The translations under genes and the position numbers were made by a program. The notes beneath the pieces were generated by a model. That model searched no databases. It saw only the letters and a list, made by a program, of their open reading frames with translations, and was not told the DNA's origin. Shown piece by piece: positions 4,759 to 44,738 of a stretch of DNA of 64,000 bases. The DNA comes from Octopus sinensis (Eukaryota): positions 95,108,001-95,172,000 of the forward strand of contig NC_043003.1 in assembly GCF_006345805.1 (NCBI RefSeq). Reading direction: 5' to 3'. Position 1 is the stretch's first letter; every line of letters starts with the position of its first letter.

Positions 4759-4805
<47 letters not shown>

Positions 4806-4974
4806 TCATATATACAATTTTAGTTGTAAATCACATAAGATTTTGCCTGTGGCCTGTCATGGGTTTTCTTAATTGTACAATAAGTTAATCATTAAAATAA
4901 ACTTCACTTTTCTTTGGTTGCTATTATTTATTTATTTATTTATTTATTATTGTTGTTATTATTATTATTATTGA

Positions 4975-5585
4975 AGATGGCGAGCTGGCAGAATCATTAT
5001 CATGCCAGAGAAAATACTTAGTGGCATTTCGTTCCGCCGAGGTCGACTTGGGAGTCATTAAACTACATACCAGTTAAGTACTGAGGTTGATGTAATCAAC
5101 TACCCCTCCCCCCTCCAGGTCCCCAAAATTTTCAGCTTTGTGCCTATAGAAGAAATTATGTGTAGTGAGCTGGTAAAAATCATATAACTGTTGGAAAATA
5201 CTGAATAGTATTTATTCCAGCTCTTTCTATTCTCAGGTCATTTTTACCTTTCTACCTTTTTAAGGTCAATAAAATAAAGTACTTGTCTAGGTCCTGGGGT
5301 CAGTGGTATCAACTAACCCTTTCCCCTTAAAATTACCGGCATTTTGCCTAATCTAGAAACCATTAAGAATAGTGAGCTGGCAGAATCGTAAAAGCGTCAG
5401 AAGAAATGCTTTGCAGTATTTTTTTTTTTTGGCTCTTAACATTCTGAGTTCAAATCCCACAGATCAACTTTGCCTTTCATTTTTTCAGGGTGAATAAAAT
5501 GAATTAGCAGTCAACAACCAGGGTTGATGTTAACGACTAACCCCGTCCCCTCAAAGCTGTTGGCCTTGGACTTAATTTAGGAACA
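4975..5585 (+). mobile_element. Three diverged head-to-tail copies of SINE family B (tRNA-derived)
   Basis: Repeated GAGCTGGCAGAATC...GAGTTCAAAT...CCTTTCAT...GGGGTCGATGTAATCGACT-like units. Confidence 0.6.
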
Positions 5586-6149
5586 ATTATTATTATTATT
5601 ATTGCTATTGTTGTTATAATTATCTGATCAGATCATTTTCTTTCTCAGTACATCACACTCTGTTGTGTTTATTTTTTTCTTTTTGAGGCCATGCTGGCAA
5701 ATAAAGAAATTATTGTTATTATTATTATTTTCCCTTTTTATTGTGTGGTACTAAAAAAAAAATTAGCAATAGTTTTCTTCTATTCCATAAACCCTGTAAA
5801 TTATACATGGAAAATTATCAATTGAAAAAATTAATTAACTTCTCCTTTATTTAATTTAAATGATAATAGGCAGTATTGGTAAAATGACCTTCTCAACATA
5901 CGACAATACTGTTGATAGTATAAGCACCTATCTGAGGTATGAGAACAAGTGTTTGTTTAATTTGGTGTGCTATTGGTCGATATGTTGTTCCCTATGATTC
6001 ATCTCCCATCAGTAAGTCTAGTGGTGGGTGGGGTTATCTTATATCACAGCTTGTATTGTCTAATATGTATCAAATTAGTTATCTTAGTTTCATAAAATTT
6101 TTGTGTGTGTGTGTGTGTGTGCCTATATGGACGTATGTATATAAGTATG

Positions 6150-32594: not shown

Positions 32595-32776
32595 TATCGT
32601 ATATGGATGTGATCTTTCATTGTTTTTCCCTTATACCTATGTGAGTTATTTTCTGAGTATGCATTGTCTGGAGACTTTTATTTGCAGTTGAAGAAATAGC
32701 CAAATTTTTGGCTGCTATTTCTGAAAAGTTCGGTGTGTGGTAAAGTGAATTTTTTTTCTTTACCATATTTTTATAA

Positions 32777-32817
<41 letters not shown>

Positions 32818-32837
32818 ATATTATATATATATATATA

Positions 32838-33562
32838 GAACTTCTGAAATTGAGGGCCCAAACGAATGAGGATAAAATAAAATCCACCGATGAAGATATC
32901 AACGAAGAAATTCGCAAAATGACCCAAGGCCCAGATCAAGAGAAGTTCTCCAAACTATGGAAAGAGGACTGTGAAAAAGAAGAACTAAAATCTCTCCAAC
33001 GCTGGGAGAAAAGCGCCACTTGGTTCTCAGACTATGAAGCCGTCTTTCAAACAGAGCACGCCTCCAACAACCCTTTCCAGAAAATAAGAAAACCAAAACA
33101 ACACCCAAACACCGATACACACCTGTCTAAAAATCGGAACCTTCACTACTATCAAAAAAAGAATACAGGACCTAACCCTAACTCTGTAAGCAGCCAGCGA
33201 TACAATATCAGGAATACCCCCACTTCAAGCAGAGAAAGGATAAATCAACACCCACAGCATAGACACTGCAACCTCATCCCCACCCAAAGGAGTTACCAAC
33301 GAAATCTTCGTCCCATTAACGGTTAAACAACCATGCACAACAAACCCACACCACTTGCAATGATTACCAACGAAGGCCTCCTAGAACACCACACCCGAAT
33401 ATGGGATATCGGGATGCTCTCCTCAATACTGCTCCAAGAACACACACCATAAATCACAACAGGAGACCCCTAATCAACAAAGAACAACTATATACTAGCT
33501 ACCATCCCAACCACCGCATTCAATTTTTAGACCCAATACGCAAACACAGAGACACAAGATAG
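32838..33562 (+). pseudogene. PLE upstream ORF (coiled-coil then low-complexity), truncated, one frameshift near 33320
   Basis: Frame 3 ELLKLRAQTNEDKIK...LWKEDCEKEELKSLQRWEK to TAA 33326; continues in frame 2 (DYQRRPP..GYRDAL..IQFLDPIRKHRDTR*) to TAG 33562. Confidence 0.55.
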
Positions 33563-35852
33563 CACCAAACAAGCAGGAGGAACCAAAAGTAATAAAAATT
33601 ATTAATCTAACTCACAAGGAAATAACAGCAAACCAAATAAACATACTTTCCAAAGGACTCAAGTTTACACCCACCCCACAACACCCCAACTACAATGAAA
33701 TGAAAGAAGACATCGCAGAATTCTGCAGAAAATTAAGACTTACTGAGGAGCTATACGATAAATACAATGAGGACGAATCGTTAGCCAGAAATAGGAGTAA
33801 CTACACCCCCTCGAAAGGTAAGAATAAAACACTTGATGATTTCTGTGACCACATATCAAATTACCCATATCAACATATGCACAAACAAAAACACAAACCA
33901 AACTTCAGCAAAAAAGAATGGGCTGAGTTGAACAAATTAAAACTAGATAAAACAATAACAATCAAAGAGGCCGATAAAGGGAGTGCTGTTGTCTTAATGG
34001 ATACGACATTTTACATAACTTTGGTACTTTCTATGCTGGAAGACACAACATACTATGAAAAGGCACAAAACTACAGTCAACAAAAAATAATGAGGGAACT
34101 AAAATCCATATTAAACCCATACAAAGCAGGGCTCACCGACAAAGAATATGATTATATGACCAATTTCACAAGTAAAACTAGCCAATTCTACGGTATACCT
34201 AAGATCCACAAAAGTGAAAAAATAAGCAACGCATGCAAGATAGCTACAGACAAAATAATTAAAGTCCCTAATCCTAATGACCTCAAATTGAGACCCATAA
34301 TAGCAGGTCCCGCATGCGAAACCCACCGCCTCAGTAACTTTTTAGACACCCTGTTAAAACCACTCCTCAAGCATGTCAAAAGCTATATAAGGGACGACTT
34401 AGATATGCTCAATCACCTACCGAATACTATAAGCAAAAACACCATACTGGTATCCTTCGATGTAGTCAACCTCTACTCCAATATCCCCCACAACCTAGGA
34501 CTAGAGGCAATCCAATTCTGGCTAGAGAATCACGCCAACGAACTACCACACCGCATCAAAAAAGAATTTGTGATGGAAGGGGTTAAATTCATCCTGGAAA
34601 ATAACTTCTTCGCCTTCAATGACAACTTCTACCGACAAAAATCGGGGACTGCGATGAGTACACGAATGGCCCCCTCCTTTGCCAACCTAGTCATAGGATA
34701 CCTAGAGATCAGTCTGTATCGTAAGGTTCTAGAAAGATATGGCAGCCCTTTCTCCATCTACATAGAAAACAACTGGAAGAGATATCTAGATGACTGTTTC
34801 ATCCTTTGGCATAAAAATATAGAAAAACTCATAGAATTCCAGAAAATTTTAAACGGACTGGACGTAAACATCCAATTCACGATGGAATATAGCCACAACA
34901 ACTCCCCTTCCTCAATATCCTCATTAAGAAAGCTAATAATATAATAGAAACAGACATATACTATAAGCCTACAGACTCTAAGCAATATCTTCCATTCAAT
35001 TCATGCCACCCCAGACACACCAGGATGAATATCCCCTTCAATCTAGCAAAAAGGATATGCACTATAGTCTCTAACGCAAACACCAGAGACACACGACTAC
35101 AAGAACTAAAAGATACCCTAATCACCAGGAACTATCCACCTTCACTTATTGACAAGTGCATTCAACGTGCCCTTCAACTTAACATCAAGGAACTGAGACA
35201 TCCCAAATCAAAGAAAAACTTACAACCAAAAGCCTTACCATACATCTCCACACACAACCCTCTCAATAACGAAGCCTTCGACACCATCCTCCACAACATA
35301 CCCCTCCTAAAAAAAGACCACAGAATGAACACAATCCTCCAAACACACACAATCATAAAAAGCAAAAGACAACCTAGATCCATGAAAAGTCTCCTTACAC
35401 AAGCCCGAATTCACTCTTCAACACAGAAGCCGACAGTAAAGAAATGTGGAAGACCCAATTGCGGGATATGCGACTATCTAATTGAGGGATCAGAGTTCTC
35501 CTTCAAACAGGGACAACGGTTTACAGTGAAAAGCAACTTCACATGTACTTCGGAGAACCTAATATACTCACTAACCTGCTCCGGGTGTCAAGAGCAGTAC
35601 ATAGGCCAAACAAAAAATGGTTTGCGTAAACGAATGGCCCTGCACAGATCCCAGATAAAAATTCCCCAAAACAGAAAAATAGCTTTTAGCCAACACATAG
35701 ATACTTGCGCCAACAAAAAAACACCAAACTTCAGAATTTTCCCCCTCTACCAATTTAGGGACGATACAACCTCGAGACAACGAATAAGTAAAGAAAATCT
35801 CTTTATTACAAAATACAAGCCACTTCTTAACGGGTCTACGACAAACAATTAA
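33499..35852 (+). pseudogene. PLE reverse transcriptase - GIY-YIG endonuclease polyprotein, frameshifted near 34900
   Basis: LSKGLKFTPT, KEADKG, FYGIPKIHK, LRPIIAG, SFDVVNLY, GTAMST, RYLDD motifs. After the frameshift: TDIYYKPTDSKQYL, CGRPNCGIC, NLIYSLTCSGCQEQYIGQT. Confidence 0.93.
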
Positions 35853-41927: not shown

Positions 41928-42464
41928 GCAATTATATATACATATATCTATATATAATATTATATAATAAAATATATACAGAGTAAAATAAAAACCAATT
42001 TACCTTTTCTGTCCGTCCGTGTGTCTTTGCAAATGTGTTGGAATGATAAGTGAGTTGAGTTTTGGCGCCTTTTTTACTAATAACAAACACACACGTGTTT
42101 GTATGTAGTTGTATGTGTATGTAGTTGTATGTAGTTGTATATGTATGTGTATGCGTGTGTGTGAGGAATGACACACACACACTCACGCACGCACACATGT
42201 ACATCAATGCTTTCGGAGTGATATGTTAAAATATTGAGTTTTCTCGAATTTTGCCTTAATTGGTGGTAAAATTGAAAGAAATGTTTTATGGCATCACCCA
42301 CTGAAGTACTCTGAAAAATCTTAGGTAAATTTTAATTGAAGAAATTGTGTGAGGAGTAAATGGTTATGTATTTATTTGTTTCTGTTTGCTGTGTTTTTTT
42401 TATTTTTTGAGTAGTGGTTTAAATACTTTCAGTTTAGTCTTCCTCAAATCACTCTGTCGCTATT

Positions 42465-42734
42465 TACTTTCATTTTATTCGTCGCACACTGTGTGTGTGC
42501 GTTTGCGTGTGGTGTAAACCAGACTAAGAAAAGCATTTGACACACACACCAGAATGTGAATTTTCTGTAAATTTTGCTTAATTGGAGTTTAAATTTTAAA
42601 AACTGGACCTGGCATGACGCGATGCATTCTACTCTTAAAAATGCTAGGTAAATTGTAATTGAAGAAATCCTATATTGTAGATTTCTATAACTCCCAAAGA
42701 GAGGCAGATAAAATCTGCCTTTTATAATAAGAGA
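42465..42734 (-). mobile_element. Helitron-like family B 5' portion; second copy at 44425-44694
   Basis: Near-identical ~270-bp direct repeat; minus-strand start TCTCTTATTATAAAAGGCAG. Confidence 0.6.
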
Positions 42735-43129
42735 CTAGCAGTATCGCCCGGCGTTGCTCGGGTTTGTAAGGGAAATAATTATATAAGCATTTTTAGAGAT
42801 GTAAAGTATAATAGCCATCTCAATATGGCTAACCACAAAGGGGGAGGGGTGTTACTGTAGCTTTTTACGTTCTGAGATTTAATAATAAATTTTAGAGAGT
42901 TACTTCCCTTATATATGTCAAAAATGGATGAAAAATGGGAAAAATTGATGGTAAATTTTTTTAAAAATCGTAGACTCATCGTAGACGCGCGCTAATACCC
43001 AGACGGTCTCGATATGAATCACGACTATAAGATACCCGGTTTTGGTTAAACTGCACCGCAAAATGTGGGAGTAGTTAGGAATCTAAATCGTAGGAGACAG
43101 ACACACAACCTCACTTTTATATATAAAGA
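42735..43129 (-). mobile_element. Non-autonomous Helitron with ~100-bp extra insert
   Basis: Reverse complement of the 26768-27071 family; extra segment ~42800-42898. Confidence 0.85.
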
Positions 43130-43228
43130 TTTCCTCTATTTACATAATATTGAGGTCTCTTTCTTTCTTTTGTTATCTTACTGTTTTTACCAATATACAT
43201 ATATATATATATATAAATATATATATAG

Positions 43229-43551
43229 TTACAGAGATGTACTTGCATAGCAAGTGACTTGATCTGAGATCGTGTGCTGGAACGAAAACAGTTGCAGCGT
43301 TGAAGGTGTTTATAAGCCATTTAAGAAACACACACAAAAACCGTTAGATTCACTTCAACATTTAAATTTAATTTGTCAAAATATTTTCGTCGCTTTGAGA
43401 CCGCGACCTGTTAGCACGATATTTTTGTCAGTGAACAGGTCGCGGTCTCAAAGCGACGAAAATATTTTGGCAAATTAAATTAAATGTTGAAGTGAATGTA
43501 ACGGTTTTTGTGTGTTTCTTAAATGGCTTACAAACACCTTCCACGCTGCAA
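43229..43551. mobile_element. PLE pLTR-like element with ~120-bp inverted arms in (TA)n
   Basis: 43292-43412 is inverted at 43434-43551. Confidence 0.7.
43424..43474 (+). ncRNA. Hammerhead-like motif with swapped G3-C8 core pair
   Basis: TTTGTCA-GTGAACA-G-GTCGC-GGTCTCAAA-GCGAC-GAAA-ATAT-TT^TGGCAAA. Confidence 0.55.
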
Positions 43552-43914
43552 TATATATATACACACATATATATATATGTATGTATGTATGTATGTGTGT
43601 ATATGTGTATGCATGTATGTGTGTGTGTGCGTGTCTGTGCTTGTGATTGTCCTCCACCACTGCTTGATAACGAATGTTGGTTTGTTTACATCCCTGTCAC
43701 CTAGTGGTTTGACAAAGGAAACAGATAGAATAAGTACAATGCTTACAAAAATAAAACTGGAGTTGATTCATTAAACTACAATTCTTCAAGGCATTGCCCC
43801 AGCATGGCCACAGACCAATGGCTGGAAAAAGCAGAAGAATAAAAGAATACATTCTCTGCTTTGGTCTTATGTTCAAGGCATGAGAAAGCTTGAGTTTACA
43901 TGAGAAGGCTTAAC

Positions 43915-44180
43915 AGACCTGGTAGAAACAGCAGCCAAATCTCCCTCAAATCACACCTTACTGTCTTATGTATGTATATATATATGAGCCAATGAGGGGG
44001 ACCTCTACATGGTAGCTAGACCTGGTAGAAATAGCAGCCAAATTTCCCCCAAATCACACCTTACTGTCTTATCTATGTATATATGTATGTATGAGCCTAT
44101 GAGGGAGACCCCTACATGGCAGCTAGACATGGTAGAAATAGCAGCCAAATCTCCCTCAAATCACACCTTACTGTCTTATC
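43915..44180. repeat. ~105-bp tandem repeat x2.5
   Basis: GGTAGAAA[C/T]AGCAGCCAAAT..CAAATCACACCTTACTGTCTTAT three times. Confidence 0.85.
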
Positions 44181-44693
44181 TTTCTGCTACTTGGATATAG
44201 GTCTTATATTCGTCGTAAAAAACTTTCCTGTCACACACTCACGCACACGCACACACACACACACACACGCACCCTCACACACACACACACGCGCACACAC
44301 ACACACACACACACTCACACACACGCACGTTAGCTTACAATTTTATTTATATATTTGCGTGTCTATGTGTGGAAAGAGGAAGTGGGAGGCAGAGTGAAAG
44401 AATCACTCACTACAGTAAGTGAATTACTTTCATTTTATTCGTTGCCCACTGTGTTTGTGCGTTTGCGTGTGGTGTAAACCAGACTAAGAAAAGCATTTGA
44501 CACACACACCAGAATGTGAGTTTTCTGTAAATTTTGCTTAATTGGAGTTTAAATTTTAAAAACTGGACCTGGCATGACGCGATGCATTCTACTCTTAAAA
44601 ATGCTAGGTAAATTGTAATTGAAGAAATCCTATATTGTAGATTTGTATAACTCCCAAAGGGAGGCAGATAAAATCTGCCTTTTATAATAAGAG

Positions 44694-44738
<45 letters not shown>

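What the first reader, a model, noticed from the sequence alone, without database searches (positions are those of the whole stretch)
43424..43474. Apparent natural G3-C8 swapped-core hammerhead ribozyme
Seen: 7-bp stem I (TTTGTCA/TGGCAAA; the inverted arm preserves the perfect TGACAAA), 5-bp stem II (GTCGC/GCGAC), GAAA and palindromic stem III (AAATATTT), but the core reads GUGAACA instead of CUGANGA. Established: positions 3 and 8 form a tertiary Watson-Crick pair, and the engineered G3-C8 double swap rescues activity. Inference: both changes together suggest selection on function, and standard CUGANGA searches would miss this family. Caveats: UUU cleavage triplet, one extra G before stem II, and stem III probably needs dimerisation.
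Basis: partly seen in the sequence, partly recalled or inferred. Interest (0 to 1): 0.8.

Follow-up and report, generated by a model that had tools for sequence, protein, structure and literature searches.

The report
Swapped-core hammerhead ribozyme in octopus retroelements
A whole lineage of Penelope-like jumping elements in this genome (likely an octopus) carries thousands of copies of a hammerhead RNA motif whose two paired core letters are swapped (G3-C8 instead of C3-G8) while sister lineages keep the normal pair, so it is likely a naturally selected, still self-cutting variant, though cutting is untested and the copy in this window is probably an inactive passenger.

Summary
The motif is real. 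It is the type I hammerhead in the pseudo-LTR of an RT + GIY-YIG Penelope-like element (PLE); a full-length copy has it in both direct repeats, 4.36 kb apart. In one sequence frame the genome holds 4,314 G3-C8 copies, 143 with position 3 changed and 277 with position 8 changed (controls 0). A core-independent sample gave G3 in 30/30 and C8 in 29/30. An older subfamily shares G3-C8, with different N7, loop II, helix III and a compensatory stem I pair. Sister PLE families have C3-G8 or U3·G8, and metagenomic outgroups are canonical, so the swap is derived and arose once (trees). The window copy is a truncated, inverted insertion carried by a 2-kb Helitron-like composite and is predicted to be locked in a hairpin. 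Cleavage is untested. I found no natural G3-C8 in print, but a key paper (Lünse 2017) was unreadable, and this scan noted the swap before in phages and protist PLEs. New variant of a known kind.

The parts
43424..43474 (+). Type I hammerhead motif with G3-C8 core, from the pLTR of a Penelope-like element
   Evidence: matches L186 pLTR at 90% over 130 nt
43424..43430 (+). Stem I, 5' strand (pairs with 43468-43474)
   Evidence: pairing kept across subfamilies
43431..43437 (+). Core box 3-9, G3 U4 G5 A6 A7 C8 A9 (G3-C8 in place of C3-G8)
43438..43457 (+). Extra G between 9 and 10.1 (43438), then stem II (43439-43443 / 43453-43457) with a 9-nt loop
   Evidence: extra nucleotide is typical of PLE motifs (PMC4209133)
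43458..43467 (+). G12-A13-A14, self-complementary helix III (43461-43466) and U17; predicted cut between 43467 and 43468
43413..43551 (+). Right arm: 5'-truncated PLE pLTR fragment without the tail; holds the ORF start codon at 43523
43229..43412 (-). Left arm: inverted pLTR copy truncated inside the core, with the ~63-nt one-sided tail (43229-43291)
43193..43227 (.). (TA)n target flank, left; a (TA)-rich flank also follows 43551
42734..44695 (+). ~2-kb composite repeat with fixed ends that carries this PLE fragment as a passenger (non-autonomous Helitron-like; that label is recalled, not tested)
   Evidence: (5' end motif in 25 of 30 loci, 3' end motif in 20 of 30)
42464..42733 (+). Extra copy of the composite's last ~270 bp, head-to-tail in front of it

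Best explanation
The motif is the hammerhead of a Penelope-like retroelement lineage in which the core pair 3-8 is inverted to G3-C8, and it likely still self-cleaves, weakly, after U17 in the element's transcript. Shown: location in both pLTRs of an RT + GIY-YIG element, fixation of G3-C8 across young and old subfamilies, canonical C3-G8 in sister families and outgroups, and retention of every other core base. Inferred: G3 pairs with C8 and keeps the 2'-OH of nucleotide 8 in place for catalysis, as in engineered swaps; the 2-bp helix III cannot close alone, so two motifs (5' and 3' pLTR, or tandem units) pair through the self-complementary AAUAUU, or the element's protein assists folding; cleavage would fall about 55 nt upstream of the ORF start and trim or circularise unit-length RNA. 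The copy in this window is likely inactive: it is a truncated insertion whose inverted arm is predicted to bury it in a ~120-bp hairpin, and it spread as cargo of a 2-kb composite repeat.
For: Full-length L186 has the motif at 1477 and 5838 around an ORF starting at 1569; L151 shows RT (YVDD), a Cys-rich linker and a GIY-YIG end; relatives hit RVT_1 (5 of 30) and GIY-YIG (4 of 30). Counts: G3-C8 4,314; position 3 not G 143; G3 with position 8 not C 277; controls 0. Core-independent anchor: G3 30/30, C8 29/30. With 3 and 8 both free, 67 older copies split into G3-C8 31, C3-G8 20, other 16, and the C3-G8 ones are separate PLE families with RT 45-49% identical. pLTR tree with 3 and 8 masked: all G3-C8-type copies form one side of a 99/99 branch of 0.37 changes per column; RT tree split 100/100 with canonical outgroups L290 and L294. 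Young and old subfamilies differ at 25 of 110 non-ribozyme columns and in N7, loop II, helix III length (AAUU to AAUAUU, both palindromic) and stem I pair 6 (G-C to U-A), yet not in the core. Pair 3-8 is a standard pair in 36 of 38 rows. In L186 stems I and II fold with probability 0.94 and 1.0. Engineered rescue: PMC11167929 (PLE hammerhead, partial), PMC9901934 (the only rescue in the CUGA motif).
Against: No cleavage was measured. Published rescue is partial, PLE hammerheads are slow even as dimers (PMC4209133), and in the Anolis PLE cleavage needed protein and was dispensable for insertion in vitro (PMC11167929). The intermolecular helix III is barely stable by itself (-0.2 kcal/mol for the 6-mer) and the modelled active dimer (-27.2) is not the lowest-energy dimer (-31.3). 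The swap is one evolutionary event, so covariation counts are not independent. The old and sister families were found with patterns that demand the core, so a family that lost it would have been missed. Retention of positions 3 and 8 alone over the old-to-young step is weak evidence (about 0.77 squared); it is the whole core that is unlikely by chance (0.77 to the 13th power, about 0.03). C8-to-G single changes are common among decayed copies (roughly 45 of the first 100 listed) and unexplained. No copy with both pLTRs and an unbroken ORF was seen among 32 regions read. One short, long-branch outgroup row (L303) fell beside a G3-C8 row in the RT tree.
Confidence: 0.7

Rival explanations
1. The hammerhead fold is kept for a non-cutting role (binding of the RT-endonuclease protein, positioning of reverse-transcription start, or control of translation at the nearby ATG), and cleavage is negligible.
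For: Cleavage was not needed for PLE insertion in vitro and no reads ended at the cut site in Anolis (PMC11167929); low activity of PLE motifs (PMC4209133); this PLE clade tolerates several core variants (U3·G8 family; U15.1-A16.1-like motif in L288).
Against: The changes seen are the ones compatible with catalysis (3-8 pair kept, G5, G12, A13, A14, A15.1-U16.1 and a non-G at 17 kept, helix III kept self-complementary through a 2-nt insertion), which a simple protein-binding hairpin would not need.
Confidence: 0.2
2. The ribozyme died or became dispensable when the swap arose, and G3-C8 persists only by descent in a retroelement lineage that no longer needs it.
For: One origin only; Naiad PLEs proliferate without any hammerhead (bioRxiv 10.1101/2021.04.23.441226); the double change could have arisen by one templated event with no selection.
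Against: After the swap the lineage changed about 23% of flanking columns, replaced loop II, changed N7 and made a compensatory stem I change, with no change in 13 core positions; stems I and II remain intact in young copies.
Confidence: 0.08
3. The window copy itself is a working ribozyme that serves the 2-kb composite repeat, as in a retrozyme.
For: The core is unchanged in the 30 best-matching loci, and some composite copies lie in tandem (L003, L021/L022).
Against: Those loci were picked for near-identity to the query; the inverted arm is predicted to form a -186 kcal/mol hairpin with stem II probability about 1e-25; the composite has fixed DNA-element-like ends rather than ends at the cut site.
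Confidence: 0.02

Closest known systems
Minimal and short-helix-III type I hammerheads in pLTRs of metazoan Penelope-like elements (Cervera and De la Peña 2014, PMC4209133)
   Same: Type I topology, position in both pLTRs, extra nucleotide between 9 and 10.1, G10.1-C11.1, palindromic helix III, frequent U17 (about 23 of the 56 motifs in Fig. S3 by my reading), 3' splice-site-like signal just upstream.
   Different: Core pair is G3-C8; their 56 representative motifs have C3-G8, U3-A8 or (one) U3·G8, none G3-C8. Their descriptors fix the catalytic boxes.
Natural U3-A8 core covariants (Perreault et al. 2011, PMC3088659; S. mansoni Cercyon, PMC4209133)
   Same: Natural covariation of the 3-8 tertiary Watson-Crick pair.
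   Different: U3-A8 is reachable by two transitions through a U·G wobble; G3-C8 needs two transversions through a mismatch, or one templated event.
Engineered C3G/G8C hammerheads (Poseidon PAc of Anolis, PMC11167929; pairwise mutagenesis, PMC9901934)
   Same: Identical double substitution; single changes kill activity and the double restores part of it.
   Different: Those are laboratory mutants; this one is natural and fixed in a lineage with over 4,000 genomic copies.
EN+ Penelope-like elements with a Cys-rich linker (Neptune/Nematis type; description from bioRxiv 10.1101/2021.04.23.441226)
   Same: [quoted passage not shown]
   Different: Tail is about 63 nt rather than 30-40; clade not placed with named references, so the Neptune/Nematis label is inferred from the linker only.

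Membership tests
Type I hammerhead ribozyme (PLE-associated) | Stems I and II around the core, type I order | tested here: met
Type I hammerhead ribozyme (PLE-associated) | Core bases U4 G5 A6 A9 G12 A13 A14, pairs G10.1-C11.1 and A15.1-U16.1, non-G at 17 | tested here: met
Type I hammerhead ribozyme (PLE-associated) | Watson-Crick pair between positions 3 and 8 | tested here: met
   G3-C8; standard pair in 36 of 38 rows across families
Canonical-consensus hammerhead (CUGANGA box) | Literal C3 and G8 | tested here: not met
   G3 and C8 in 4,314 copies; filed as a variant, not as a canonical member
Type I hammerhead ribozyme (PLE-associated) | Extra nucleotide at 9/10.1 and short palindromic helix III | tested here: met
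   PMC4209133
Type I hammerhead ribozyme (PLE-associated) | Site-specific self-cleavage after N17 | not testable with these tools
   only assembled contigs were available, which cannot show RNA ends
Type I hammerhead ribozyme (PLE-associated) | Stem I / loop II tertiary contacts | not tested
   none modelled; not recognisable in most PLE motifs per PMC4209133
Rfam hammerhead families | Covariance-model match | tested here: inconclusive
   no hammerhead hit at gathering or E<=10, but canonical relatives L311 and L290 are missed too
EN+ Penelope-like element | Single ORF with RT and C-terminal GIY-YIG endonuclease | tested here: met
   in family members L151, L185, L186; the window holds only the first codons
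EN+ Penelope-like element | Direct pLTRs, inverted 5'-truncated copy, one-sided tail, AT-rich target | tested here: met
   (23 arms with tail, 26 without, 12 other)
EN+ Penelope-like element | Spliceosomal intron in the pLTR | tested here: inconclusive
   branch-point-like and AG signals ~20 nt upstream of stem I; no spliced joint could be seen
Non-autonomous Helitron (carrier composite) | Fixed ends with terminal hairpins, captured fragments, partner Rep/Helicase element | tested here: inconclusive
   fixed ends and captured pieces seen; partner element not searched; label recalled

The most novel reading that the evidence does not exclude
The first natural G3-C8 hammerhead lineage in an animal: an active ribozyme whose catalytic-core pair was inverted in a single template-switch event copied from its own stem II strand (the canonical sisters carry exactly that inverted template), then kept by selection through thousands of retrotranspositions, showing both that Penelope hammerheads must cut in vivo and that a hidden class of swapped-core hammerheads is missed by standard searches.
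Probability: 0.2. Interest if true: 0.75.

Novelty: new variant of a known kind. Interest (0 to 1): 0.55.

Why it matters
The 3-8 pair in the hammerhead active site was inferred from a crystal structure and from engineered rescue; in the papers I could read, nature had shown only U3-A8. Here a dated natural series sits in one genome: C3-G8, U3·G8 and G3-C8 families with homologous pLTRs and RTs. That gives phylogenetic support for the tertiary pair, argues that Penelope-element hammerheads are under selection for a catalytic core (their function is still open), supplies matched natural constructs to measure what the swap costs, and shows that CUGANGA-based descriptors miss over 4,000 motifs in one animal genome, which could make some PLE families look ribozyme-free.

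Tried and rejected
Rfam: no hammerhead hit for the window or for canonical relatives; hits are generic hairpins and microsatellites. Near-identical copies as evidence of conservation: rejected, all but a few belong to one composite and were picked by similarity; only 1 match had the same 5' context without the exact junction and it was a composite variant. Search for the ORF by extending the tail: 30 of 123 loci read, none continued; the ORF was found through the upstream anchor instead. Protein-coding constraint on the core: rejected, the ORF starts about 55 nt after the cut site behind an in-frame stop and loop II length differs by one base between subfamilies. RT of the old G3-C8 subfamily: not found in 40 loci, only traces of the ORF start. 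Expression: no RNA holder on record; four contig sets, three only guessed to be RNA, cover the pLTR and ORF start but cannot show ends, strand or level, so they are not used for or against cleavage. Metagenome relatives: 18 loci, 4 with a clear canonical motif, none with G3-C8. Pfam on the single L151 protein: 0 families. First look-up of earlier notes by sequence: nothing. Literature searches for a natural G3-C8: and six exact strings in 11 supplements of PMC3088659 found none; Lünse 2017 (PMC5785218), Przybilski and Hammann 2007, Martick and Scott 2006, Nelson and Uhlenbeck 2008 and Scott 2013 were not held, and supplement file 1 of PMC4209133 could not be searched, so the novelty claim is incomplete.

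Full report
Observation. The window is G000:C7:95108001-95172000 of a 2.72-Gb genome; I infer an octopus from genome size, repeat content and a best named protein relative from Octopus vulgaris (56%). A descriptor with positions 3 and 8 free finds only this site in the window and none in 40 resampled windows. Rfam gives no hammerhead hit, but it also misses canonical relatives, so the miss is not caused by the swap alone.

Local context. The motif lies in the right arm of a head-to-head inverted repeat (43229-43412 on the minus strand, 43413-43551 on the plus strand) between (TA)n runs. The left arm starts inside the core and carries about 63 extra bases. This whole unit sits in a ~2-kb composite repeat (42734-44695) with fixed ends (5' end motif in 25 and 3' end motif in 20 of the 30 best loci). 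Its ends resemble non-autonomous Helitrons (recalled, not tested). The 30 best loci all have the same core, but they were chosen by similarity and share one junction, so they show descent from one captured insertion. If the left arm is transcribed too, the motif is predicted to be buried in a -186 kcal/mol hairpin. The window copy is therefore probably a passenger.

The source family. Excluding the composite's loop gave 406 further G3-C8 matches (control 0). The 30 loci read are short independent insertions with an inverted copy, a one-sided tail and AT-rich targets, the layout described for Penelope-like elements (bioRxiv 10.1101/2021.04.23.441226, passages). An anchor upstream of the core matched 415 places; of the 30 read, 30 have G3 and 29 have C8. 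Following long copies led to L151, with a 722-residue frame holding RT, a Cys-rich linker and a GIY-YIG end, and to L186, a full-length element with the motif in both direct repeats (1477 and 5838) and an ORF from 1569 that has one frameshift. Of 32 RT-bearing regions read, 10 had a G3-C8 motif, 2 a G3-G8 copy, 1 only an unrelated descriptor hit and 19 none within 10 kb. In a fixed frame the genome holds 4,314 G3-C8 matches, 143 with position 3 changed and 277 with G3 and position 8 changed (controls 0); only 1 match has C3-G8 with this stem II, and it belongs to another family. Contigs under three organism labels show the same core in loose ends.

Evolution. A pattern with N7 not A gave 209 matches (control 11), including an older subfamily whose copies are about 80% identical to their column majority. 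It has N7 = C, another loop II, a 4-nt palindromic helix III and G-C at stem I pair 6 where the young family has U-A. With 3 and 8 both free, 67 matches split into G3-C8 31, C3-G8 20 and 16 single changes (counted by hand). The 20 C3-type loci read belong to sister PLE families with homologous pLTRs; 3 carry RT pieces 45-49% identical to the G3-C8 family. A third family has mostly U3·G8 (7 of 10). In a tree of 81 pLTR copies with 3 and 8 masked, the 54 G3-C8-type rows are one side of a 99/99 branch of 0.37 changes per column and the young family a 100/100 group inside it (bootstrap not fully settled, flanks partly non-homologous). The RT tree of 17 rows (L305 left out) splits G3-C8 from canonical octopus and metagenomic rows at 100/100, apart from one short long-branch row, L303. 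Among 18 metagenomic relatives, L290 (50% identical) has a canonical C3-G8 motif with the same extra G, short palindrome and U17. So G3-C8 is derived and arose once. Column majorities outside the ribozyme differ at 25 of 110 positions between young and old and 48 of 97 between young and canonical A, while the core differs only at 3, 7 and 8. Old and sister families were found with patterns that demand the core, so this shows that conserved families exist, not that none lost it. On 38 rows, pair 3-8 is standard in 36 (one row misaligned, rows related, so not independent).

Mechanism. Positions 3 and 8 form a tertiary Watson-Crick pair. C3G and G8C each abolish cleavage of an Anolis PLE hammerhead and the double partly restores it; that ribozyme needed the element's protein, and cleavage was not required for insertion in vitro (PMC11167929, passages and section 3 part 2). 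In pairwise mutagenesis the G:C swap was the only rescue in the CUGA motif (PMC9901934, passages). A review gives the same partial rescue (PMC8495972, one passage). PLE motifs normally have the extra nucleotide and a palindromic helix III and cleave weakly as dimers (PMC4209133, main text parts 1-2 of 4); about 23 of its 56 listed motifs have U17 (supplement file 2, parts 1-2 of 3). In L186 both stems fold well, a monomeric helix III cannot close, and a double-hammerhead dimer is feasible but not the lowest-energy state. I therefore infer weak, dimer- or protein-dependent cleavage after U17 (0.7), against a non-cutting structural role (0.2), a dead relic (0.08) or function of the window copy itself (0.02).

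How the valley was crossed (speculative). In 15 of 17 canonical sister copies the bases from 9a to 10.5 are the exact inverted complement of the swapped box, against under 1% in shuffles, so one template switch could have made both changes. These copies are one or two lineages, the idea is post hoc, and the G3-C8 and U3·G8 families mostly have G at 10.4 where the template needs A.

Novelty. Natural U3-A8 is published (PMC3088659, sections 8-9; PMC4209133). My searches found G3-C8 only as an engineered mutant (also PMC3884650, passages). Five relevant papers, above all Lünse 2017, were not held. Earlier AI notes of this scan report G3-C8 motifs in phages and, with an extra base, in protist PLEs; I did not test them. 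What this case adds is an animal lineage with thousands of copies, a full-length element, canonical sisters and outgroups. Verdict: new variant of a known kind, interest 0.55.

Noticed in passing
L273-L280, L252, L031 (e.g. L277:983-1035 minus strand): A sister PLE family whose hammerhead has mostly U3·G8 (7 of 10 copies), a wobble version of the 3-8 pair; one such motif is in the published list (Saccoglossus).
   Followed up: partly
L288 about 4975-5030 and L289 about 2490-2540: Metagenomic PLE relatives (RT 47-49%) with other odd cores seen by eye: one with C3-G8 and an apparent U15.1-A16.1 swap, one with a U3-A8-like box lacking A9. This clade seems to have unusually plastic cores.
   Followed up: no
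genome-wide: Among decayed copies C8-to-G is about as common as C8-to-T (roughly 45 and 42 of the first 100 listed), across several loop II subfamilies; cause unknown.
   Followed up: no
window 32700-35852 +: A second, unrelated-looking PLE with RT (481-aa frame) and GIY-YIG (319-aa frame) split by a frameshift; no hammerhead found by my descriptor in the window.
   Followed up: partly
window 42734-44695: The 2-kb carrier is a mosaic: a short element with Helitron-like ends (42734-43130), the PLE fragment, a SINE-like piece (about 43630-43820), a 107-bp tandem (43915-44181) and a second 3' end; copy number not counted.
   Followed up: partly
L151:4259-7004: An element with 597-bp direct repeats (97.8% identical) and no long ORF is inserted in the 3' region of this PLE copy, inside a further insertion.
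   Followed up: no
L186:900-1456 and 4782-5818: The PLE's 3' region and putative intron are largely (CATA)n/(CA)n microsatellite, about 1 kb, ending in a branch-point-like and AG signal just before the hammerhead.
   Followed up: partly
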